Assembly (NCBI GenBank): GCA_051003235.1
Contig: JBPCLN010000101.1
Span: 1 to 56,049, forward strand
Direction: 5' to 3'
DNA length: 56,049 bases
Origin: Chloroflexota bacterium
GTDB lineage: Bacteria; Chloroflexota; UBA4733
A model generated the notes under the pieces. It was not told the DNA's origin and searched no databases. It saw only the letters and a list, made by a program, of their open reading frames with translations. Position 1 is the first letter of the stretch. Every line of letters begins with the position of its first letter. Position numbers and translations under genes: made by a program. Below, in pieces: positions 855 to 37,102 of the stretch.

Positions 855-1126
855 GGTCGTGCTACACGGGGCGCTGGTGGTGCCTTGAACCCGCAATCCA
901 CCTTAAGGCGGGGTGGAATTCCCTCCCGAGGCCGTGAGCCTGCCGATTCTGACCGATTGGTCCGGCGTTGATGGATGGGCCCTGCGCGGCGAAGCACTAC
1001 GAACCCCGTCAGGTCGGGAACGAAGCAGCGGTAAGTAGCCCGCTTCGGGTGCCGCAGGAACGCCTAACCGGAGTCGCCCGGTTGGTTATGGCGGTTTGGT
1101 TTCCAGTCGAAGGAGGGTGCACGACC
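855..1126 (+). ncRNA. ffs: Large bacterial (Alu-domain-containing) signal recognition particle RNA
   Basis: Helix 8 signature GUCAGGUCG-GGAA-CGAAGCAGC at ~1008-1029; 5' GGUCGUGC pairs with 3' GCACGACC; 5' Alu-like GGUGCCUUGAACCCGCAAUCCACC resembling Bacillus scRNA; ~270 nt. Confidence 0.93.
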
Positions 1127-2226: not shown

Positions 2227-3228
2227 GTGTACCGACCAACGACGAAGGGAGCCGGCGTGGTGTATTCCGTCGTCGCGCCCGTTTTCAACGAAGCCGCCAC
2301 GCTCCCCCACTTTTATCAGCGAGTAAGCGCCGTTCTGGAGCGCCTCGGTGAACCCTACGAGATCATTCTCATCGATGACGGCAGCCGTGATACCTCGTTC
2401 GAGCTGATGCGCTGCCTCCATGCCGAAGACCCGCGCGTCAAAGTCTTGAGCTTCTCGCGCAACTTCGGCCATCAGATCGCCATCAGTGCCGGCATCGACG
2501 CCGCGGGCGGGGATGCCGTAATCGTCATCGACTCCGACCTGCAGGACCCGCCGGAAGTGATTATCGACCTGGTGGCGGCCTGGAAGCGCGGCTATGAAGT
2601 GGTGTATGCCGTGCGATCCGCCCGCAAAGGCGAAACCAGATTTAAACTGGCGACGGCCAAAGTCTTCTACCATCTGCTGTCGCGCATTGCTGCGGTTGAC
2701 ATCCCGCACGACACCGGCGACTTCCGCCTCATGGATCGCCGGGCGGCCCTGGCCATGCGCAGCCTCCGGGAGCACCATCGCTTTATGCGCGGCCTCTCCT
2801 CCTGGATCGGCTACCGTCAGACCGGCGTCCCCTACGTCCGGCAGGAGCGATTCGCCGGCAGCACCAGCTATCCATTGCGCAAGATGGTGAAGCTGGCGAT
2901 CGACGCGATGACGAGCTTTTCCTACTTGCCGTTGCAACTGGCCACTACCTTTGGCTTTGCCACCGCCGGGCTCAGTGTGCTGGGCATCCTGCTGACGATC
3001 ATCCTGCGGCTGACCAACCGCACTGTCGCCGGCCAGGCGACGACCCTGGTTGCGGTGCTGTTCCTGGGCGGCATTCAGCTCATTTTCCTCGGTGTGATTG
3101 GTGAGTATCTGGGCCGAATTTACGACGAAGTGAAAGGTCGCCCTCTGTATTTGCTGCGTGAGGCGCTGGGGTTTGACGGGGATGGGTCGGATCGGCGATC
3201 GGGGCCGGAGTCCGATTCGCGTTGTTAA
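2227..3228 (+). CDS. GT2 polyprenol-phosphate glycosyltransferase (GtrB/ArnC/YkoT-like)
   Basis: [36 protein letters not shown], two C-terminal TMs, [17 protein letters not shown]. Confidence 0.93.
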
Positions 3229-4517
3229 GCCCGAACGGCGCTGCGCACATCCTCCAGCACCATGTTCGCCACCCGCTCCGCCAGGGCAATGCTGTAGTTC
3301 TGCCCGCGATCCTGGGGATAGATCTGAAACATGTTCGCCATATAGAAATCGGGTACGGGCGTACGATTCGGCGGCAGGCGCTCGACAAAGCCGGCAGTAA
3401 CGATAGGCTGGGCGTAGGGCGCTTTGAACACGTGGGCGGCCTGCACCCAACTCGGATCGAACGCCGGATTGAGGCGGGGCAGGGCGGCGGTGAATGCCGT
3501 CACCACGGCCTCGTCGGTCTGCCGAAAAACTGGATCATCCTGGGGCAGGTAGTTGCCAAGATACACCAGGTGTTTGCCGCCATAATCGCTCGGCGGCAAG
3601 AGGTTGGTGTGCTCCACGACCGCCAGGAAAGGGAAACCAGGGTCGTTGATGCAGAGCCAGTACGGACGCATCAACTGGCGGTCCAGTTCCAGCACCACAC
3701 AATGGGCGGCATAGGCGAGACCCTGATCGTACTGCTGGCGAAACGCTGCCGGCAGGTCGGGGACGAGCTGGAGGGTCAACCGCGTCGGCGCCGTGGAGAC
3801 CACCACGTCGAACACCGCCTGCCGAGCGTTGGTCTCCAGGGTGAAGCCGCCGCCGCTCTGGGGGACGATACTGCGCACGGTCTCCCCGAAGTGCAACCGG
3901 CCATGGCGCTGCTGAATCGCTCCCACCAGGCGTTCATAGAGCAGTTGAAAGCCGCCGCGCACATAGCCCAGCTTCGCTGTCCGGTAATGCAGTCGGGCCC
4001 ACATCCAGGACATGAGAATGTCATCGGCGTGGACGCCGAATTTGGCGCGGAGCAGCGGCTCCCACACCACACGGTACGGTTCGGCGCCCATCCAACGGCG
4101 CAGCCAGGCACTGGCGGTGTGGCGCTCCAGTCGGTGGTAGTTGCGCTCTACCTTCAGGTAGGCGGTTGCCGCCCCCAGGCGTAGGCGGTTCGGCAACGCC
4201 AGCGGCGGGAAGCGGAGCACCGCACCGACGGAATCCATCGGGTACATGCCGCCATGGTACAGGATGCTCGATTCGGGCCGCAGCCAGAGCAAGCGATCGC
4301 CCAGACCCAACTCCTGAATCAGATTGATGGCGGACCGGTCAGTGCCAAAGAGATGGTGGTAGAACTTCTCGACATAAGCCCCGCCCACGCGGAAGCCGGC
4401 CGCAAGGCCGCCCGGCTCACTGCCGCGCTCGAAGACCTCTACCGATTGCCCGGCCTGTACCAACCGGTAGGCGAGCGTCAGGCCGAGCGCGCCGGCGCCG
4501 AGGATGGCGGTGGTCAT
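3225..4517 (-). CDS. NAD(P)/FAD-dependent oxidoreductase (amine oxidase/protoporphyrinogen oxidase-like)
   Basis: N-terminal GAGALG dinucleotide fold, [20 protein letters not shown]. Confidence 0.85.
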
Positions 4518-6762: not shown

Positions 6763-7530
6763 ATGATTCGATTATCAGCCTGCGTTGAAATGATTTATCG
6801 CGACCTACCGATGGTCGAACGCATCGCGCACGTCGCGGCCATGGGCCTGCCGGCGTTTGAATTCTGGAGCTGGGTCAATAAGGACCTACCGGAGATTGCC
6901 AGGGCGAAGGCGGAACACCGCCTGGCTGTTTCCAGCTTCGCCTACGCCAGTCCTGGCGCGATTGTCGATCCAGCAAACCATGCCGCCTTCCTGAAGCATT
7001 TCGACGGCGTCCTCACGGCCGCCGACACGCTGGATTGCCGAACCGTAATCGTGACTGTTGGCCAGCAACTCCCGGCGGTGGGACGGGCCGATCAGCACGC
7101 AGCGATCGTGGACGCCTTGCGGGCGCTAGCGCCACGCGCGCAGCAAAACGGCATCAGTATCGTCGTAGAGCCGCTTAACACTCTGATCAACCACAAGGGC
7201 TATTACCTATCAACGTCGGAGGAGAGCTTTCAGATCATCGACGAAGTAGGGAGTCCGGCGATTTCCATTCTCTTCGACGTCTATCATCAACAAATCACCG
7301 AAGGCAATCTGATCAACAATATCACCACCTATTTCCAGAAGATCGGCCACTTCCATATTGCCGATAACCCTGGGCGCAACGAACCCGGCACCGGCGAAAT
7401 CAACTATGCCAATGTGCTACGCACCATTGACAGTCTCGGCTACAGCGGCTATATCGGCCTGGAATACCGACCGAAAGCCGATGCCGACGCCGCACTACAG
7501 GCGACCAAAGTCATTGCCGGCATGGCCTGA
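6763..7530 (+). CDS. hyi: Hydroxypyruvate isomerase family TIM-barrel protein
   Basis: FEFW, EPLN, FDVYHQQITEGN, HFHIADNPGRNEPGTGEINY, GLEY. Confidence 0.85.
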   Translation: MIRLSACVEMIYRDLPMVERIAHVAAMGLPAFEFWSWVNKDLPEIARAKAEHRLAVSSFAYASPGAIVDPANHAAFLKHFDGVLTAADTLDCRTVIVTVGQQLPAVGRADQHAAIVDALRALAPRAQQNGISIVVEPLNTLINHKGYYLSTSEESFQIIDEVGSPAISILFDVYHQQITEGNLINNITTYFQKIGHFHIADNPGRNEPGTGEINYANVLRTIDSLGYSGYIGLEYRPKADADAALQATKVIAGMA

Positions 7531-30965: not shown

Positions 30966-31065
30966 CGCCGGGTAAGTCGTTAGCGAAGCCTCACGGAGCG
31001 TGGTCGTGAAGTCGCCGGGTAAGTCGTTAGCGAAGCCTCACGGAGCGTGGTCGTGAAGTCGCCGG
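30966..31065. repeat. 47-bp tandem duplication (2 copies + 6-bp CGCCGG)
   Basis: CGCCGGGTAAGTCGTTAGCGAAGCCTCACGGAGCGTGGTCGTGAAGT at 30966 and 31013, CGCCGG again at 31060. Confidence 0.95.
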
Positions 31066-32014
31066 TCGCCTTCGGCGCCGCGTATAGCTTGCGCTCCAGC
31101 GTGCGATGATAACCCGACCAGTTACCTGGCCGTTCCACCTGCAGGAGGGCGGCGGCGAAGATGGCAAGTTGGCAACTGGTGTAATCGGCCAGATGCAGCG
31201 CTACCGCTTCCAGAGTTTTGGGCAACTGGGGCGACCGCCATTCGTGGCGGCCGTGATGGCTGAGGAGCATGTGGCGGAGGCGTACCAGGAGTTCCGCCGA
31301 TAGTTCCGGGATGCGGGCGCCGAGCTGCGCCAGCAAGGCGTCGGCGATCGGGATATGCCCGAGCAGCCCGCCTTCGTCCGTTTCCTCAAAGGCGGCTGCC
31401 GTATTGTATTCGCGCACCTTGCCGATATCGTGCAGCAAGGCGGCGGTGATCAGCAGTTCGCCGTCCATCTCGGGATGGAGGGCGAACTGCGCGCGGCAGA
31501 GCCTGACCACTTCCAGGGTGCGCTCCAACAAGCCGCCGAGATAGGCGTGATGGATTTGCGTCGCCGCCGGCGCCAGCGCGAACTGGGCATATCGCTCGCG
31601 GTCGAAGGTCGCCTCCAGGAGGGCGCGGAGGCCGCGATGCCGGACGCTATTCACTTCGGCGCGGAACTCGCGGCCCATGGTCGCCGCGTCACGCGGACTG
31701 GACGGCAAGAAATCGGCGAGTTGGTAGTCGTTGTGGCTCGTCGGGCTCACGTGCTCGACGACCACCTGCACGTCGCCGTTGTACAACTGGCAGCGCCCTC
31801 GGACGTGGACGATGCTTCCCTCCCGTGTGAACGGATAGAAGCGATCGGCGTCCTCCCAGGCTACCGCGTTCACCTCGCCGGTGCGATCGCCGAGGACCAG
31901 CGTCATGAAACTGCCGGAGCGGCTGCGGTGCGTCCGCTGTTGCCGGGAGCGCACCTGAAACGGCGCGGAAAACTCCTGCCCGTCGGTGAGGTCGGTGACC
32001 CAGATCTTCGCCAC
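30980..32014 (-). CDS. yhaM: YhaM/Cbf1-like OB-fold + HD-domain 3'-5' exoribonuclease (possibly degenerate)
   Basis: LGDRTGEV..V.W OB-fold, HHAYLGGLLE, LLHDIGK, LLGHI, SHHG. Confidence 0.8.
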   Translation of the reverse strand: MAKIWVTDLTDGQEFSAPFQVRSRQQRTHRSRSGSFMTLVLGDRTGEVNAVAWEDADRFYPFTREGSIVHVRGRCQLYNGDVQVVVEHVSPTSHNDYQLADFLPSSPRDAATMGREFRAEVNSVRHRGLRALLEATFDRERYAQFALAPAATQIHHAYLGGLLERTLEVVRLCRAQFALHPEMDGELLITAALLHDIGKVREYNTAAAFEETDEGGLLGHIPIADALLAQLGARIPELSAELLVRLRHMLLSHHGRHEWRSPQLPKTLEAVALHLADYTSCQLAIFAAALLQVERPGNWSGYHRTLERKLYAAPKATGDFTTTLREASLTTYPATSRPRSVRLR

Positions 32015-32086
32015 AGATACTCCCGTGCCGGACCATACCGATACGATAGGCCGGCAGGCGCAGCGTTACCGCGACCGGATAGCCGG

Positions 32087-32659
32087 TCAACCCAACCGTG
32101 AATGCCCGGTAGGCAACTGTAGCACACGCACCTGCAAAACGTCGGAAAATTCCAGTACGGCGACGCTGGCCGCCGGTAAGCCTCGCGGATCGACGGCACT
32201 GCCCGGATTGAGGAGGACGAAGCCGTCGGCGTGCTCCGCGACCGGGCGATGGGAATGGCCAAAACAGAGGACGTCCAGGCGTTCCGGGAACCGAGCCGCC
32301 GTCCGTCGCCATGCCGCCGCGTTTTGGCCGGCGGCGTGTACCGCCCCGACCCGCCAGCTACCGATTTGTAAGAGCAGGGCGGCCGGCGTCTCCGCGCCTA
32401 AGTCAACCGGGTCGACGTTGCCCAGGACCGAAAACAACGGCGCTCGCTGCCGCAACGGGTCAAGCAGTGCCGGGTTCAGAAAGTCCCCGCAATGGAGGTA
32501 GGCGTCGCATGTCCCCATGCGTTCGATCGCTACATCGGGAACGGCAGCCGCACGGCTGTACCGATGCGTGTCCGACAAGACGCCCAGACGAAAAGGACGA
32601 TCGTCGGGCGCCGCCAGCGCGACGACCTGCGGAACGAGTGAATTAGGCACGCCAATCAT
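32087..32659 (-). CDS. Metallophosphoesterase, YfcE/MJ0936 family
   Basis: SDTH, HCGD, LGNVD, FGHSH, LNPGS. Confidence 0.9.
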   Translation of the reverse strand: MIGVPNSLVPQVVALAAPDDRPFRLGVLSDTHRYSRAAAVPDVAIERMGTCDAYLHCGDFLNPALLDPLRQRAPLFSVLGNVDPVDLGAETPAALLLQIGSWRVGAVHAAGQNAAAWRRTAARFPERLDVLCFGHSHRPVAEHADGFVLLNPGSAVDPRGLPAASVAVLEFSDVLQVRVLQLPTGHSRLG

Positions 32660-32828
32660 TCCTCTTCTCCGCTTCAGGATACGGCAACCAGGGGGAAATT
32701 TCGGCGCATCACCGGCGCAGGAGCACATAGCACAAGGAGGGACGACTACGCCAGCGGTAAAGGCGATGAACGTCCGGCAATATCAATAGTACCCTTGGCT
32801 AATTGCCGGAGCGTGGGCGCAAAAGGTA

Positions 32829-32857
32829 TTGACATGACGATAGAAGTGTCCTATTGT
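32829..32857 (+). promoter_or_regulatory. Sigma70-type promoter driving the candidate ncRNA
   Basis: TTGACA-N17-TATTGT with A-rich sequence just upstream; no + strand protein gene follows. Confidence 0.75.
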
Positions 32858-32863
32858 ACTGAC

Positions 32864-33310
32864 ATCACGGAACGGGGTTCCGCAAGCGCCTCCTAGACCT
32901 GCAGGACTGGGGGGATCGCCCCGCTTCGAGAAGACGACGACGCTGGATGGGAATAGTCGGCAAGGTTCCGTCCGGCATCCGAGCCGAAAGGTGGGTTCAC
33001 GGTTCTGCGTTGGTGCCTCCTTCGGGAGTCCCGGCGCTCCGGCGAACTCGCAGCACCCGGCCATCCGCCCCGTGGCGGATGGGTGCAGGGAAGGCGACCG
33101 GCGTTGGGGTAAAGCCCGACACACTGCCACCGGGGCGGGTTCCGGCAACGGAGTCCGGTGGCGGCGGCGCAAGGCGAAGGTCTTGCGGCTGGTGCGGAGG
33201 ATGACGTTCGTCCCCGTCTTGCGCGGACGGTGGTGCGAACAAGGTGGCTGTTGCGAGGCAGCCTCGGTCGTCGGTTCCGGCGTAGTCCCGGAGGGCAACC
33301 TCCGGGACTC
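32864..33310 (+). ncRNA. Candidate large structured non-coding RNA of unknown class
   Basis: Own promoter, terminal hairpin, about ten helices with GCAA/GCGA/UUCG loops and G-U pairs, 5'-3' closing pairs; no credible ORF. Confidence 0.7.
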
Positions 33311-33318
33311 GTTGTTGT
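33285..33318 (+). terminator. Terminal hairpin / intrinsic terminator
   Basis: GTCCCGGAGG-GCAA-CCTCCGGGAC perfect 10-bp stem followed by TCGTTGTTGTT; abuts stop of the convergent gene. Confidence 0.7.
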
Positions 33319-34316
33319 TAAACGTGCCGCGCAACCATCCGCAATGTTGCTTCCCAGGCTTCCCCTCGTTCCAGCACCCGCCGGCCGGCATTAATGCCGT
33401 GTTCGTCCAGGTTGAAGGCATCCGTCGCACAGGTGTACGGCTCAAAGCAGACGACACCCTGCCCGGGTGGCGCATAGACCACGATTTCCCGGAAGTTGGC
33501 GTCGGCTTCCAGCGCCATTTCCAGTCTGACGGCCGGGTCGACCAACCGGCAGGTGGAAGTACCGTCCACGAGCGTGACGGCGCTATAAACATCGTCGAAT
33601 GTCCGGTCGCCGATGGGCATCAGCCGGTCGGTTGGGTCTTTGGACGTGAGCGGTACGCGCCGCCCCGTCGGAATCAAGCCGGCATCCAGCTCCCAACGGT
33701 CGCCCACCGGCACGGCGATTTGGCAGTCGCTCTGCTGTCCTTCGTCCGTCATTGGGGCCCGGAAATATGGGTGAATGCCGAAGCCGAACGGCATGCTGCT
33801 GTCACCTTCATTGATCGCGCTCACGGTCAGGCTGAGCACGGTCCCTTGTAATACATAGTCGGCGACAAGGCGAAACGGGAATGGATAGCCCTGGCTTTGC
33901 TCCAGGTCGGCGTGCGCAATGACACAGCGCAAATGAGCGCCCTGGTTCGTAGCCTCCGCCGCTTCCACCCGGAACGGCGCCGCCAGCACCAGGCCATGGA
34001 TGGCGTTGCCGTGATTATTGACCGCCAACTGATACTCCTGGTCCTGAAAGCGATAGCAGCCCCGCGCGATGCGGTTGGGGAAGGGGAACAACAGGGGTTG
34101 GCCGAAGCGCGATGGCGTTGCCCGTAGCTCCGCCGCCGACGCCGGGGCACGCAAGAGCTGAATCGCCCGTCCCTCCGGCCCGCGCACGCTAAATTGCACA
34201 CAATTGGCACCCACCCCCGGCAGGACACGCGCGGTCGAACCCGCTTCTCTGTCGTGCAGGACATACCCGCCCAGGGGCGCCTCACCGACGGTAACTGCAT
34301 ACCGATAGTCGGCCAT
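33318..34316 (-). CDS. Aldose 1-epimerase family protein
   Basis: LFPFPNRI, AIHGL, YPFPF, GIHPYF, FDD, CFEPYT. Confidence 0.92.
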   Translation of the reverse strand: MADYRYAVTVGEAPLGGYVLHDREAGSTARVLPGVGANCVQFSVRGPEGRAIQLLRAPASAAELRATPSRFGQPLLFPFPNRIARGCYRFQDQEYQLAVNNHGNAIHGLVLAAPFRVEAAEATNQGAHLRCVIAHADLEQSQGYPFPFRLVADYVLQGTVLSLTVSAINEGDSSMPFGFGIHPYFRAPMTDEGQQSDCQIAVPVGDRWELDAGLIPTGRRVPLTSKDPTDRLMPIGDRTFDDVYSAVTLVDGTSTCRLVDPAVRLEMALEADANFREIVVYAPPGQGVVCFEPYTCATDAFNLDEHGINAGRRVLERGEAWEATLRMVARHV

Positions 34317-34338
34317 GTTGATTGCTCCTCTCGTGGGA

Positions 34339-34465
34339 ACCTAACCCCGTCTTCCCCTTCCCTAACGAAGGAAGGGGAAGACGGGACGGGGATAACGGCC
34401 ATCCCTCGTCGTCGCCCCCCGTCGTCGCCCCCTTCCTTCTTAGGGAAGGGGGTTGGGGGTTAGGT
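34339..34465. repeat. REP/BIME-like composite palindrome
   Basis: Two inverted CCCCTTCC(C)T..AGG(G)AAGGGG hairpin units bounded by ACCTAACCCC...GGGGTTAGGT. Confidence 0.7.
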
Positions 34466-37102
34466 CGCCTCCGGCCCGGCACTGGACACAACGACGCGAT
34501 CGAGATCAAGGTGGCGGCGAACGGTGTCCAGCACGTCGCCCGCCTTGACCGCGTTGACGCTGGCGATGAAATGGTCAACTTCATCAAGGGGCAGCCCGAA
34601 GCGCTGGATACTCATCAGTAAGGAGGCGACGCCTGCGGTGGTCTCCAGCCGCAGGGGCATGCTGCCGGTCAGCAACTGTTTCGCCTCGGCCAACTCCGAA
34701 TCGGTCGGGCCATCCTCCCGATAGCGGCGGAACTCGCCAAGCGTCGCCTCAACCGCCGCTTCGACATCCTTGGGCGCCACCCCAATGCGGGCCGCCCAGG
34801 GACCAGGCCCGAAGCCGGCATCGAAACTGGTCGAGGCGTAGTAAGCGAGGCCCCGCCGCTCGCGTACCTCCTCGCCGACCCGGCCGCCCATGCCGAGCCG
34901 GCCGAGGATAGTGTCGGCGACCAGGAGCCGAAAATAGTCCGGGTCGTTGCGCACGATCCCCGGCAGGCCAATCACCAGATCGGTCTGCGTCTTGCCGGCA
35001 ACGCCCTGGAACCCGCGTTGCACGGCGGGCACGGCGTTGACGGGCGGGATGGCGATATCCGGCGCGGCCCGTAGGGCCGGCCAGGCGCCGAAATAGCGCT
35101 CCAAATATTCCAGGGCGCGATCGCCATCCAAACCCCCGGCCATGGCGATGACCATACCGGCGGAACCGGCGAAACGCTCCGCAAAGCGCGTTACATCGTC
35201 CCGGCTGATCGCCTCGATCATCGCCGTCGTGCCGGTCGGCCAGCGGTGGTAGGGGTGGCCGACCGGATAGGCCAGTTCTCGGAAGCGCCGCTCCGCGACC
35301 TCACGCGTATTGGTCGCCTCCTCCCGCGCCGCCGCCAGCATTGGTCCGCGCACGATATCCAACTGAGTGTCAGGATAAACGGGCTGCCGAAACACGTCGG
35401 TGAGCAAATCCAGCGCCACGTCCAGGTGGTCGAGTAGACTCTTCACGGAGTAGGAACTGAAGTAATCGCCGCTGCCGCCGTGCAGTTGGATGCCCCGGCG
35501 ATCACTCTCCTCCGAGATCTGCTCGTAACTGCGCCGTTCCGTACCACGCAGACGCAAGGCGCCTTGCGCGGCGGCGACGCCCCGCTGATCGTCGGCATCG
35601 TAGGCAGAACCGCCAGGCACGGACGCCTGCACAAGTTCCCAGGGCGTCCCTGGCGCCGCGTGGAGGAGGACGACTATGCCATTCGACAACACCGCGCGCC
35701 GAATGGTGAAGCCTGCCGCCGGCTGGCGCTGGATGGTCGGCGCCGGTCGCGGCGACTCGGTCGCAGGCGTCGCCGCGGGGCCAACCTGGGGGATCGTCAC
35801 CGCCACCGGCGCCGCCTCCGTCGGCCTGAACCAACCGAGCGTGCGGTTCTCCGGCGCGAAGTAGCGGGCGCAGACGCTCCGAATCTCCTCCGGCGAGACG
35901 GATCGCAGCCGCTGCAAGAGCTCGCGGTCATCCGTGGGCAAACCGGTCAGCACACTTTGGCCCAGAGCGGAAGCCTGCCGGCTGACGCCTTCCGCGGCGT
36001 AGAGGAACTGCGCGGCAGCTTGTTCGCTGGCGCTGAGCAACTCTTGTTCGTCGACGTGCTCGCTGCTCAGGCGCTGCAACTCGTCGAACAGGATGCGCTC
36101 AACTTCCTGGGGCTCCGTGCCGGGGCGCAACGAGGCGCTGAGGTAGAAGAGACCCGGGTCGACGCTGGTACCGGTGCTGGCGGAAACGGAGCTGGCCTTT
36201 CCGGTATCGACGAGGACCCGCCGCAGGCGCGAACTCCGCCCCATGCCGCCGCCGCCTCGCCCAAGCGCCGTGCCGCCGCTGAGCAGGGCATCCACAACGG
36301 AGAGCGCTGGTATGTCCTGATGGCCGGCCGCCGGAATATGGTAGACGGCCATGAGATGGGCGGTGCCGCCCGGACGACGCACTTCCACGCGACGTTCACC
36401 TTCCTGCGGCGGCTCGACTGAGCGCAGCGCCGCCGCCGACTGTCCCGCCGCGATACCACCGAAGTAGTGCTCAATCTGAGCAAGCATGGTTGGCGCCGAG
36501 AAGTCGCCGACTGCCACGGCAACCGCATTGTTCGGGTGGTAGTAGCACTGGTAGTGCGTCCACAGTTCCTCGCGGGTGATACGTTCCAGGTCACTCTTCC
36601 AGCCGATCACCGGCTGGCCGTACGGGTGGACCTTGTAGGCGACAGCCATCACTTCTTCGTAGAGGTGACGCGTCGGGTAGTTCTCGCCGCCCTGGCGTTC
36701 AGAAATGATGACGGTGCGTTCTCGCTCGACCTCCGCCGGGTCCAGCACCGCATTTACCATGCGATCGCATTCCAGCTTCAGCGAAAGCTCGATTCGGTCG
36801 GCCGGCAGGGCCTCAAAAAAGGCGGTGCCGTCCATCCAGGTGAAACCGTTGCGATAGCCGCCATTGGCGGCCACGACACGATGCAAGGCACCCTTGGGAA
36901 AGGTAGGGGTGCCGTCGAAGAGCAAGTGCTCCACCCAGTGGGACAGGCCCGTCGTCCCGGCGACTTCGTTCCGGGAGCCCACCTTGTAGAAGACATAAAA
37001 GGCGGCAACCGGTGCCGCGTGGTCCTCACGCAGAAGCACCGTCAAGCCGTTCGGGAGGACCGCCGACTCAACAGGAAGACTCGACTGGGTCGTGGGGGCC
37101 AT
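34460..37102 (-). CDS. M16 (pitrilysin/insulinase) zinc peptidase, two-half fusion
   Basis: LPNGL, VGSRNE, HWVEH (HxxEH), HPY, second half with RERRGLAY. Confidence 0.93.
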   Translation of the reverse strand: MAPTTQSSLPVESAVLPNGLTVLLREDHAAPVAAFYVFYKVGSRNEVAGTTGLSHWVEHLLFDGTPTFPKGALHRVVAANGGYRNGFTWMDGTAFFEALPADRIELSLKLECDRMVNAVLDPAEVERERTVIISERQGGENYPTRHLYEEVMAVAYKVHPYGQPVIGWKSDLERITREELWTHYQCYYHPNNAVAVAVGDFSAPTMLAQIEHYFGGIAAGQSAAALRSVEPPQEGERRVEVRRPGGTAHLMAVYHIPAAGHQDIPALSVVDALLSGGTALGRGGGGMGRSSRLRRVLVDTGKASSVSASTGTSVDPGLFYLSASLRPGTEPQEVERILFDELQRLSSEHVDEQELLSASEQAAAQFLYAAEGVSRQASALGQSVLTGLPTDDRELLQRLRSVSPEEIRSVCARYFAPENRTLGWFRPTEAAPVAVTIPQVGPAATPATESPRPAPTIQRQPAAGFTIRRAVLSNGIVVLLHAAPGTPWELVQASVPGGSAYDADDQRGVAAAQGALRLRGTERRSYEQISEESDRRGIQLHGGSGDYFSSYSVKSLLDHLDVALDLLTDVFRQPVYPDTQLDIVRGPMLAAAREEATNTREVAERRFRELAYPVGHPYHRWPTGTTAMIEAISRDDVTRFAERFAGSAGMVIAMAGGLDGDRALEYLERYFGAWPALRAAPDIAIPPVNAVPAVQRGFQGVAGKTQTDLVIGLPGIVRNDPDYFRLLVADTILGRLGMGGRVGEEVRERRGLAYYASTSFDAGFGPGPWAARIGVAPKDVEAAVEATLGEFRRYREDGPTDSELAEAKQLLTGSMPLRLETTAGVASLLMSIQRFGLPLDEVDHFIASVNAVKAGDVLDTVRRHLDLDRVVVSSAGPEAT

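What the first reader, a model, noticed from the sequence alone, without database searches (positions are those of the whole stretch)
32829..33318. Candidate new class of large (~420-450 nt) highly structured non-coding RNA with its own promoter and terminator
Seen in the sequence: a near-consensus promoter (TTGACA 32829, 17 nt, TATTGT 32852) points into a gap with no credible protein gene, and the gap ends in a perfect 10-bp GCAA-capped hairpin (33285-33308). Between them I can pair these nested helices. CGGAAC 32868-73 with GUUCCG 33274-79 closes the 5' and 3' ends. CGACGAC 32935-41 pairs with GUCGUCG 33267-73, and there is an 11-bp helix 32942-52/32966-76. GCGUUGG/CCGGCGC encloses CUCC-UUCG-GGAG (33007-37). 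CCAUCCGCC/GGCGGAUGG spans 33061-82. A junction closed by ACCGGC 33097/GCUGGU 33188 holds GUUGGG/CCCGAC, CUGCCACCGG/CCGGUGGCGG with an inner UUCCG-GCAA-CGGAG, and CGCAAGGC/GUCUUGCG. GUUCGU/GCGAAC encloses CCGUCU/GGACGG, and GGCUGUU-GCGA-GGCAGCC follows. Possible long-range alternatives are CCUGCA 32898/UGCAGG 33084 and CCUCC 32889/GGAGG 33196. The many G-U pairs and the GNRA/UUCG loops read correctly only on the + strand. Known classes: it lacks the RNase P (GAGGAAAGUCC), tmRNA, SRP, 6S, OLE and raiA signatures I remember. Inference: a stand-alone large ornate RNA (ribozyme or RNP scaffold).
Basis: partly seen in the sequence, partly recalled or inferred. Interest (0 to 1): 0.92.

Follow-up and report, generated by a model that had tools for sequence, protein, structure and literature searches.

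The report
New large structured RNA in Chloroflexota
A stand-alone gene for a roughly 420-450-base, intricately folded non-coding RNA that matches no catalogued RNA family sits here; it appears only in one little-known genus of soil and rock Chloroflexota, and its function is unknown.

Summary
A sigma-70-type promoter (32829-32857) and a hairpin terminator (33284-33309) bracket about 450 nt with no conserved reading frame.

- **Homologues:** they exist in 3 of 3 other genomes of the same genus (88, 86 and 67% identity). Conservation starts at the promoter and stops after the terminator.
- **Structure:** a 150-pair, 21-helix model is 94.7% paired across the 4 sequences, against 36-49% when partners are slid. 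It has 27 pairs changed on both sides, against 0-8 slid and 9.3±2.5 shuffled.
- **Known families:** no Rfam 15 family matches. RNase P, tmRNA and SRP RNAs lie elsewhere in the genome.
- **Distribution:** two sub-domain covariance models, two sequence patterns and BLASTN found it nowhere else. This covers 397 other Chloroflexota genomes, GTDB species genomes, JGI metagenomes, IMG/VR, plasmids and phages.
- **Expression:** contigs of 381-395 nt from soil RNA libraries, and a 161-nt one from a biocrust library, lie wholly inside the predicted transcript.

The 5'/3' closing helix CGGAAC/GUUCCG and both long-range alternatives do not.

The function is unknown. My best guess is a trans-acting folded RNA, either an RNP scaffold or a self-assembling ornate RNA. 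An invariant palindromic CUGCAG loop suggests dimerisation. Only 4 distinct sequences exist, so the structure is well supported but the mechanism is inferred.

The parts
32829..32857 (+). Sigma-70-type promoter: -35 TTGACA (32829-32834), 17-nt spacer, -10 TATTGT (32852-32857)
   Evidence: 10 of 12 consensus matches and the only such site in 2.5 kb. TTGACA is invariant and the -10 is TAnnnT in 4 of 4 homologues, while sequence further upstream does not align.
32864..33318 (+). Predicted transcript of about 455 nt including the terminator, or about 420 nt up to the terminator stem. The start (about 32864±3) is inferred from the -10 box.
   Evidence: Conservation begins at ...ACAUCACGG and ends after the terminator. 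RNA-library contigs cover 32885-33282. There is one copy in the genome.
32868..32928 (+). P1 domain: a 5' hairpin made of P1a 32868-77/32919-28, P1b and P1c 32889-96/32907-14, with the invariant internal-loop block CGGGGUUCCGCAA
   Evidence: helices 1-3: 100, 100 and 93.8% paired; P1c has 3 pairs changed on both sides. The G-to-A and C-to-U changes in the divergent homologue keep the P1a pairs.
32899..32904 (+). Invariant palindrome CUGCAG in the apical loop of P1c; candidate symmetric kissing-loop (self-association) site
   Evidence: CUGCAG is present in 4 of 4 sequences while the stem beneath covaries. No differences are listed at these positions in the three RNA-library contigs that cover them (table 3). 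The function is inferred.
32930..32941 (+). 5' strand of P2, the long-range helix that closes the core; it pairs with 33267-33277
32942..32976 (+). P3 hairpin with the invariant apical block AGUCGGCAAG, followed by the invariant joiner AUCCGAG (32977-32983)
   Evidence: helices 5-6: 97.7 and 100% paired, with 1 pair changed on both sides. One search shows the invariant blocks.
32983..33088 (+). Sub-domain P5 (GNRA-capped mini-hairpin), P6a-c (UUCG-capped arm; GCAA in the divergent homologue) and P7a-b
   Evidence: helices 8-13: P6a has 4 of 6 pairs changed on both sides; P6c has 2; P7b has 2. P7a (88.9% paired, no covariation) is the weakest helix; all 4 sequences fold to the same shapes.
33094..33195 (+). 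Junction domain closed by P8 (33094-33102/33188-33195), holding the hairpins P9, P10a/b (GNRA cap: GCAA, GUAA or GUGA) and P11
   Evidence: helices 14-18: P8 has 2 pairs changed on both sides, P9 has 1, P10a has 2, P10b has 2 and P11 has 2; the same three-hairpin fold in 4 of 4 sequences (-54.9 to -60.5 kcal/mol).
33196..33204 (+). Conserved single-stranded joiner GGAGGAUGA (U at the last position in the divergent homologue) in the central junction
   Evidence: Its GGAUG is complementary to the invariant CAUCC at 32976-32980. Both are invariant, so the pairing can be neither supported nor rejected.
33206..33240 (+). P12 hairpin: outer GUUCGU/GCGAAC, inner CCGUCU/GGACGG
   Evidence: helix 19: 84.6% paired on the sequence-only alignment; the divergent homologue forms a 7-bp hairpin (CUGCCGC/GCGGCAG) at the same place in a register shifted by 1 nt.
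33246..33263 (+). P13 hairpin with the invariant GUUGCGAGGC (two tandem U-G pairs closing a GCGA loop)
   Evidence: helix 20: 100% paired, 2 pairs changed on both sides..
33267..33277 (+). 3' strand of P2 (GUCGUCGGUUC)
   Evidence: helix 4.
33284..33319 (+). Intrinsic terminator: an 11-pair GCAA-capped hairpin (33284-33309) plus the U-rich tail CGUUGUUGUU
   Evidence: helix 21: 97.7% paired, 2 outer pairs changed on both sides. The convergent aldose 1-epimerase gene ends at 33318.

Best explanation
This is an independently transcribed gene for a 420-455-nt, highly structured non-coding RNA of an undescribed family. It is single-copy and conserved in all four known species of one uncultured Chloroflexota genus.

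Shown:
- It has its own conserved promoter and terminator.
- It is non-coding.
- It has a conserved architecture. A 5' hairpin domain (P1) and the terminator lie outside a core closed by a long-range helix (P2). From the core's central junction radiate P3, a P5-P7 sub-domain, a three-hairpin P8-P11 domain, P12 and P13. Invariant single-stranded joiners separate these arms.
- Its sequence is present in environmental RNA libraries.

Inferred: it acts in trans as a folded RNA and is not a cis-regulator. The most likely role is a scaffold of a ribonucleoprotein or of an RNA-only assembly (about 40% of my belief). The invariant palindromic CUGCAG apical loop would form a symmetric kissing contact between two copies, as the palindromic loops of OLE and GOLLD do. 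A ribozyme or ligand-binding core is the next most likely role (about 15-20%).

My confidence of 0.8 applies to 'a real, structured, stand-alone ncRNA of a new family', not to the mechanism.
For: - **Transcription unit:** the promoter and terminator are at the stated places. TTGACA, the TAnnnT -10 box and the terminator are conserved in 4 of 4 homologues, while the flanks do not align.
- **Homologues:** BLASTN found it in 4 of 61 genomes, which is 3 of 3 other genomes of the genus, at 88, 86 and 67% identity. It is single-copy.
- **Structure:** 150 pairs are 94.7% paired, against 36.0-48.8% when slid. 27 pairs are changed on both sides, against 0-8 when slid and 9.3±2.5 in shuffles (0 of 500 shuffles reach it). 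Each domain folds to the same shape in 4 of 4 sequences.
- **Non-coding:**
- **No known family:**. RNase P RNA, tmRNA and SRP RNA are elsewhere in the genome.
- **Expression hint:** whole contigs of 385, 381 and 395 nt from three RNA libraries of one study, and a 161-nt contig from a second study, lie inside 32885-33282. All stop within 10 nt of each other, just 5' of the terminator stem.
- **Strain variant:** of 8 substitutions in that variant, 3 fall in unpaired columns, 3 keep their pairs (G-U to A-U, G-U to G-C, C-G to U-G) and 2 break pairs in the weakest helices. This is my reading, table 3.
- **Stand-alone:** the next gene downstream is convergent, and the upstream gene differs in each of the 4 species.
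- **Precedent for palindromic-loop kissing contacts:** passages of PMC12286853.
Against: - Only 4 distinct sequences exist, and three of them are 85-88% identical to one another. Most covariation therefore comes from one divergent genome and reflects few independent events.
- The single-sequence fold is only modestly better than shuffles (z -2.87; 2 of 100 shuffles fold as well).
- Helices P4 and P7a have no covariation and some broken pairs.
- The terminator's U-tract is interrupted by G.
- Contigs cannot show the strand, ends or level of an RNA, and RNA libraries can contain DNA (caveats printed).
- No partner protein, ligand or target is indicated by the gene neighbourhood.
- The palindromic loop is invariant, so covariation cannot test the kissing contact.
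Confidence: 0.8

Rival explanations
1. It is a new ribozyme or metabolite-binding RNA. The conserved junction strands (AUCCGAG, GGGAAGGCG, GGAGGAUGA) and the invariant loops would form an active site or binding pocket rather than a scaffold.
For: At least five sequence blocks, mostly unpaired in the model, are invariant across homologues that are only 65% identical overall. The compact multi-way junction is closed by a long-range helix. GNRA caps are kept as a class on P10b (GCAA, GUAA, GUGA).
Against: There is no match to any ribozyme or riboswitch model in Rfam 15. No adjacent gene suggests a substrate. There is no evidence of processing sites. Distribution in a single genus is unusual for an essential catalyst.
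Confidence: 0.17
2. It is a highly divergent member of a known large RNA family (RNase P, tmRNA, 6S, OLE, ROOL, GOLLD, raiA, HEARO/omega RNA, or a group I or II intron) that the covariance models miss.
For: The genus sits in a class with only 6 species genomes, so divergence could be extreme. 6S RNA was not found in this genome with RF00013.
Against: cmscan with permissive filters at E<=10 returned none of these families. RNase P RNA, tmRNA and SRP RNA are each found elsewhere, above their cut-offs. At about 450 nt and 21 helices it is unlike the roughly 185-nt 6S rod (6S size is from recall). No IscB/TnpB, reverse transcriptase or transposase gene flanks it.
Confidence: 0.04
3. It is a cis-acting or antisense element tied to the convergent aldose 1-epimerase/M16 peptidase genes, for example a shared bidirectional terminator or transcription-collision insulator with a long structured leader.
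For: The epimerase and M16 genes lie downstream, convergent, in all homologous loci that extend far enough. In the window the epimerase stop codon is 9 nt from the hairpin.
Against: An insulator or terminator needs no 400-nt covarying multi-domain fold or its own conserved promoter. In the most divergent species the gap to the epimerase is about 140 nt. The hairpin has a U-rich tail only on the plus strand.
Confidence: 0.04
4. It encodes a small protein or is a dual-function RNA.
For: High-GC ORFs overlap it: 85 aa and 286 aa on the plus strand, 269 aa on the minus strand. A GGAGG lies directly before an AUG at 33201.
Against: No frame is open in all 4 homologues. Substitutions per codon position are flat (22/16/18, 26/16/20, 48/47/52). 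Of 12 internal indel runs, 10 shift the frame. There is no Pfam match. GGAGG abuts the AUG with no spacer, and that frame ends after 12 codons in the divergent homologue (my reading).
Confidence: 0.02

Closest known systems
OLE, ROOL and GOLLD RNAs (large 'ornate' bacterial ncRNAs; Rfam RF01071, RF03087, RF01998 - accession numbers recalled)
   Same: It is a stand-alone, several-hundred-nucleotide, multi-helix bacterial RNA with blocks of invariant nucleotides and an unknown biochemical function. It has a palindromic hairpin loop like those that make symmetric intermolecular kissing contacts in OLE and GOLLD (passages of PMC12286853).
   Different: No covariance-model similarity. It is smaller (about 450 nt). 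It occurs in Chloroflexota from soil and rock, not in Firmicutes, rumen or lake organisms or phages. It has no phage or tRNA-cluster context. Oligomerisation is untested.
raiA motif RNA (RF03072 - accession number recalled)
   Same: It is a structured ncRNA of unknown function with its own promoter and terminator. The abstract of PMC12968392 (listed) reports raiA as highly abundant in cells. Here the RNA was assembled from small soil metatranscriptomes.
   Different: No model match. raiA is reported in more than 2700 species (abstract), whereas this RNA was found in 4.
Bacterial RNase P RNA class A (RF00010)
   Same: Similar size class, a GNRA-rich multi-domain fold and a long-range closing helix.
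   Different: The genome has its own RNase P RNA elsewhere (189.5 bits), carrying GAGGAAAGUCC and ACAGAAUGCGGCUUA. This RNA scores nothing against RF00010.
HEARO/IscB omega RNAs and other guide RNAs of mobile elements
   Same: A large structured RNA with a narrow, patchy distribution.
   Different: There is no adjacent IscB, TnpB, transposase or reverse transcriptase gene. The neighbours are a metallophosphoesterase, aldose 1-epimerase and an M16 peptidase. It is single-copy and has no model match.

Membership tests
Any Rfam 15 family (4227 models) | Covariance-model score at or above the family's gathering score | tested here: not met
   the only match in the 56-kb window is SRP RNA at 857-1124. 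(E<=10, permissive filters, 32650-33450): four matches of 14.8-16.3 bits against cut-offs of 39.1-112.
RNase P RNA class A (RF00010) | Match to RF00010, including the P4 strands GAGGAAAGUCC and ACAGAAnnCGGCUUA | tested here: not met
   No RF00010 match at the locus. The genome's RNase P RNA is at G000:C300:13928-14213 and shows both strands.
tmRNA (RF00023) | Match to RF00023 with a tRNA-like domain and tag reading frame | tested here: not met
   tmRNA is at G000:C382:2741-3100 (158.7 bits). ARAGORN finds no tmRNA in the window.
6S RNA (RF00013) | Rod of about 185 nt with a central bubble (recalled); match to RF00013 | tested here: not met
   There is no RF00013 match anywhere in the genome or at the locus. 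The fold has 21 helices in several domains and is not a rod.
OLE / ROOL / GOLLD / raiA / HEARO | Match to the family's covariance model | tested here: not met
   None of these appears even at E<=10.
OLE / ROOL / GOLLD | RNA-only homo-oligomer formation (PMC12286853) | not testable with these tools
   Only a lead: the invariant palindromic CUGCAG loop.
HEARO / omega RNA / retron ncRNA | Adjacent IscB/TnpB nuclease or reverse transcriptase gene (recalled) | tested here: not met
   Pfam scans of the flanking ORFs in the window and in three homologous loci show none.
Group I / group II introns | Match to the intron models; interruption of a host gene | tested here: not met
   No match. The locus is intergenic, between convergent and divergent genes.

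The most novel reading that the evidence does not exclude
The RNA is the founding member of a new class of ornate bacterial RNAs. It would assemble without protein into a symmetric homodimer or higher oligomer through its invariant palindromic CUGCAG loop. Alternatively, its invariant junction would form a new catalytic or ligand-binding core. Either would be the first such RNA from Chloroflexota, abundant enough to be assembled from soil and biocrust metatranscriptomes.
Probability: 0.25. Interest if true: 0.85.

Novelty: categorically new. Interest (0 to 1): 0.7.

Why it matters
Bacterial non-coding RNAs of several hundred nucleotides with intricate conserved folds are rare. Nearly every one studied in depth has revealed unexpected biochemistry: RNase P, tmRNA, group I and II introns, OLE, and the ROOL and GOLLD nanocages.

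This one is a new sequence and structure family with no relatives in Rfam 15. It comes from an almost unsampled class of Chloroflexota (6 species genomes) found in rock, soil and biocrust samples.

It has clear boundaries, a testable secondary structure and a specific self-association hypothesis. It can therefore go straight to in-vitro transcription, chemical probing and cryo-EM without a cultured host.

Its limits are the narrow distribution, with four species known, and the lack of any functional clue from neighbouring genes.

Tried and rejected
Both substitutions in the divergent homologue break pairs (helix 1). The same substitutions are tolerated in the alternative P1a pairing (helix 1).

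No change is compensated, and 4 of 6 and 2 of 5 pairs respectively break in some sequence.

3. **First RNAalifold run**. It paired ACGACGAC with the terminator's U-tail and GGCGACCG with CGGUCGUC. I rejected these in favour of P2 and P8, which carry consistent or compensatory changes.

4. **Candidate pseudoknot**: P7b loop CCGU (33070-33073) with the P10a internal loop GCGG (33135-33138). It is 100% paired in 4 of 4 sequences, and 3 of 4 pairs change on one side only (helix 4). It has no double changes, overlaps two P10a pairs, and many chance 4-bp matches of this quality exist. I keep it as a lead only.

5. **Wider homologue searches**, all negative:
- BLASTN: 0 of 57 genomes outside the genus.
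- CM R1 (5' domain): in 151 Chloroflexota genomes, only the 4 genus genomes are strong. Eight hits at per-genome E 3.5e-4 to 0.054 are about what chance gives over 147 genomes, and the three whose alignments were printed share little with the conserved blocks.
- CM R2 (3' domain): same result, with the best other hit at E 0.0019. None lies beside an R1 hit.
- A 30-nt pattern with up to 3 mismatches: 4 of 401 genomes.
- A two-block pattern in GTDB species genomes: 20 loci, of which 3 are real, all from the same genus.
- The same pattern in JGI metagenomes: 45 loci, of which 3 are real. Two are 99.6-99.8% identical and one 100% identical to known sequences.
- IMG/VR: 3 chance hits and 0 hits for the two patterns.
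- Plasmids and phages: none.

6. **Sister genus**: 0 of 2 genomes. They are only 57 and 66% complete, and their M16 peptidases are only 24-27% identical. This is neither evidence of absence nor usable for synteny.

7. **Flanks in RNA libraries**: 32600-32871 and 33314-33600 had no cover in the four RNA runs.

10. **Literature**: no paper found describes a large Chloroflexota ncRNA (searches; 'find' in PMC11109978 gave 0 mentions of Chloroflex). Supplements were not seen.
Full report
**What is at the locus**

Between the start of a metallophosphoesterase gene (32087-32728, minus strand) and the end of an aldose 1-epimerase gene (33318-34316, minus strand) lies a 589-nt gap. It holds the only sigma-70-like promoter in 32000-34500: TTGACA at 32829, a 17-nt spacer and TATTGT ending at 32857 (1 site found; shuffles give 0.3±0.6). 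It also holds an 11-pair GCAA-capped hairpin at 33284-33309, followed by CGTTGTTGTT. Terminator-like sites as such are not enriched in this stretch (2 found; shuffles give 2.0±1.6). The weight of the terminator therefore comes from its conservation, described below. ORFs that overlap the gap (269 aa on the minus strand; 286 and 85 aa on the plus strand) have no Pfam match.

**Homologues and boundaries**

BLASTN over 61 genomes found the 459-nt stretch in 4. These are the window's own genome and all 3 other genomes of its genus, at 88, 86 and 67% identity. It found it in none of the 57 others. There is one copy in the own genome. In the alignment that includes the promoter, TTGACA is invariant and the -10 box keeps TAnnnT. 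Sequence upstream of -35 and downstream of the U-rich tail does not align. Conservation of the body starts at ACAUCACGG, about 7 nt after the -10 box. This is what an independent transcription unit looks like.

The downstream neighbours (convergent epimerase, then an M16 peptidase) recur in every homologous locus that extends far enough. The upstream gene is different in each species:
- a metallophosphoesterase in the window's genome;
- a Zn-dependent alcohol dehydrogenase;
- a MurG-like glycosyltransferase with FtsW;
- an unassigned 516-aa ORF.

**It is not coding**

No reading frame is open in all four sequences. Differences from the window sequence fall evenly on the three codon positions (22/16/18, 26/16/20 and 48/47/52). 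Of 12 internal indel runs, 10 have lengths that are not multiples of three.

**It is structured**

The plus strand folds to -241.2 kcal/mol (z -2.87; 2 of 100 shuffles fold as well). The minus strand folds to -195.9 kcal/mol (z -1.48).

I built the structure model in three steps:
- I started from an RNAalifold run with the U-tail excluded.
- I added the terminator hairpin.

The result is a 150-pair, 21-helix model. On the sequence-only MAFFT alignment of the four sequences it gives these figures:

| Measure | Model | Partners slid by 1-3 columns | Shuffled |
|---|---|---|---|
| Cells paired | 94.7% | 36.0-48.8% | 89.7% |
| Pairs changed on both sides | 27 | 0-8 | 9.3±2.5 (0 of 500 reach 27) |

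The helices with double changes are P1c (3), P3 (1), P6a (4), P6c (2), P7b (2), P8 (2), P9 (1), P10a (2), P10b (2), P11 (2), P12 (2), P13 (2) and the terminator (2). Folding each domain of each sequence on its own gives the same shapes in 4 of 4 sequences.

Two cautions apply. Three sequences are 85-88% identical to one another, so most covariation comes from the single 65%-identical genome and reflects few independent events. P4 and P7a have no support and some broken pairs.

**Architecture** (window coordinates)

- P1 is a 5' hairpin domain (32868-32928).
- P2 (32930-41 with 33267-77) closes the core.
- Inside the core lie P3 (32942-76), a sub-domain of P5-P7 (32983-33088), a three-hairpin junction P8-P11 (33094-33195), P12 (33206-40) and P13 (33246-63).
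- The terminator follows at 33284-33309.

Blocks that are invariant, or differ at one position in the divergent sequence, sit mostly in loops and joiners:
- CGGGGUUCCGCAA (P1 internal loop);
- CUGCAG (P1 apical loop);
- UUCGAGAA;
- AGUCGGCAAG (P3 loop);
- AUCCGAG;
- GGGAAGGCG;
- GGAGGAUGA;
- GUUGCGAGGC (P13).

These are shown.

The CGGAAC/GUUCCG end-closing helix and both 'possible long-range alternatives' do not.

**What it is not**

- Rfam 15 at gathering score finds only the SRP RNA at 857-1124 in the whole window.
- At E<=10 with permissive filters, the locus gives four matches of 14.8-16.3 bits against cut-offs of 39-112.
- The genome's RNase P RNA, tmRNA and SRP RNA are elsewhere. 6S RNA was not found, but this RNA is not rod-like.
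- No nuclease, transposase or reverse transcriptase gene is adjacent.
- There is no plasmid, phage or IMG/VR counterpart.

**Distribution**

The genus belongs to an order and a class that each hold only 6 species genomes. The RNA is in 4 of 4 genomes of the genus and in 0 of 2 of the sister genus, which are 57 and 66% complete and very distant.

| Search | Collection | Result |
|---|---|---|
| CM R1 (5' domain, 131 positions) | 151 Chloroflexota genomes | Strong only in the 4 genus genomes; weak hits at chance level |
| CM R2 (3' domain, 95 positions) | 151 Chloroflexota genomes | Strong only in the 4 genus genomes; weak hits not co-located with R1 hits |
| 30-nt pattern, up to 3 mismatches | 401 Chloroflexota genomes | 4 of 401 |
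| Two-block pattern | GTDB species genomes | 20 loci, 3 real, all titled Chloroflexota or Chloroflexi MAGs |
| Two-block pattern | JGI metagenome contigs | 45 loci, 3 real, all at least 99.6% identical to known sequences |

All of this means 'not found in what was searched'. Searches of more than 40 genomes used Infernal's stricter filters, and the exact patterns cannot see diverged relatives.

**Expression**

The run index lists 20 runs from 12 studies that hold part of an 801-nt stretch around the locus. Seven of them are RNA libraries. I laid four RNA runs:

| Run | Library | Contig length | Window position |
|---|---|---|---|
| X14 | Soil metatranscriptome, study P9 | 385 nt | 32885-33273 |
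| X15 | Soil metatranscriptome, study P9 | 381 nt | 32896-33277 |
| X16 | Soil metatranscriptome, study P9 | 395 nt | 32896-33274, plus 19 loose 5' letters that match the conserved GUUCCGCAA block and then diverge |
| X17 | Biocrust library, study P10 | 161 nt | 33127-33282 |

Every contig lies wholly inside the predicted transcript. All four stop within 10 nt of one another, just before the terminator stem. The tool rates such agreement between two studies as a weak hint. Contigs cannot show strand, ends or level, and DNA can contaminate RNA libraries.

The soil contigs belong to a fifth, 95-99% identical variant. Of its 8 substitutions, 3 fall in unpaired columns and 3 keep their pairs (33174 G-U to A-U, 33190 G-U to G-C, 33054 C-G to U-G). 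Two break pairs at the base of P6a and P7a, the weakest helices. Its 3-nt deletion lies in a GGC repeat and can be placed in the P10a-P11 linker. This is my reading.

**How it most likely works**

Shown: a stand-alone, conserved, structured, non-coding transcription unit.

Inferred: it works in trans as a folded RNA. No gene lies downstream on its strand, the upstream neighbour is not conserved, and it has its own terminator.

The invariant loops and joiners, set among freely covarying stems, point to specific tertiary or intermolecular contacts. One feature gives a concrete hypothesis. The apical loop of P1 carries the 6-nt palindrome CUGCAG in 4 of 4 species, and no difference is listed there in the three RNA contigs that cover it, while the stem below it covaries. 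Palindromic loops of exactly this kind form symmetric kissing contacts between chains in the OLE dimer and the GOLLD cage (passages of PMC12286853).

I therefore rank the possible roles as follows:
- a scaffold, either RNP or RNA-only, possibly dimeric: about 40%;
- a catalytic or ligand-binding core: about 15-20%;
- everything else, including cis or antisense roles, a missed known family, or coding: about 10% together;
- the remainder is undetermined.

GGAGGAUGA could pair with the invariant CAUCC at 32976-32980. Its GGAGG also resembles a Shine-Dalgarno sequence. Neither idea can be tested with invariant columns.

**Novelty and verdict**

No Rfam family matches, and no paper found by three searches describes it (I saw listings, abstracts and 'find' passages only, and supplements were closed).

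It ranks high but not at the top for three reasons. It is known from four species of one uncultured genus, its function is unknown, and the covariation rests largely on one divergent sequence.

Noticed in passing
G000:C300:13928-14213 (locus L005 1501-1786, minus strand) and G001:C1:118745-119041 (locus L116): The genus's RNase P RNA is short (286-297 nt against a 367-position model). The P13/P14 region is deleted, and P3 and P12 are shortened. It sits in an unusual array: 16S rRNA 3' end, then 5S rRNA, RNase P RNA and four tRNAs, with no 23S between the 16S and the 5S. The arrangement is identical in two species, and the RNase P RNAs are 96% identical. RF00010 was not found in the other two genomes of the genus, perhaps because rRNA regions are unassembled there.
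   Followed up: partly
window 857-1124 (+): A large bacterial SRP RNA (RF01854, 163.7 bits), the only Rfam match at gathering score in the 56-kb window.
   Followed up: no
window 30980-32014 (-): An ORF with an OB-fold (tRNA_anti-codon) domain plus an HD domain. From recall, this architecture resembles the YhaM-type 3'-5' exoribonuclease. It lies two genes upstream of the RNA in this species only.
   Followed up: no
upstream of the RNA promoter: window about 32729-32828; L006 about 7152-7297; L011 about 3222-3343; L018 about 1795-1942: The gene upstream of the RNA differs in each of the four species, while the downstream side is syntenic. There is thus a recurrent rearrangement breakpoint just 5' of the promoter. 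No integrase or transposase turned up in the six upstream ORFs scanned in three of the homologous loci.
   Followed up: partly
window 33158-33169: A short GGC triplet run (GGUGGCGGCGGCG) at the P10a/P11 boundary is one unit shorter in the soil metatranscriptome variant (table 4).
   Followed up: no
sister genus genomes G004 and G005: The only other genus of the class has much smaller genomes (1.1-1.6 Mb at 57-66% completeness). It carries the M16 peptidase as two separate genes of about 430 aa, 24-27% identical to the fused 880-aa form in the window.
   Followed up: no
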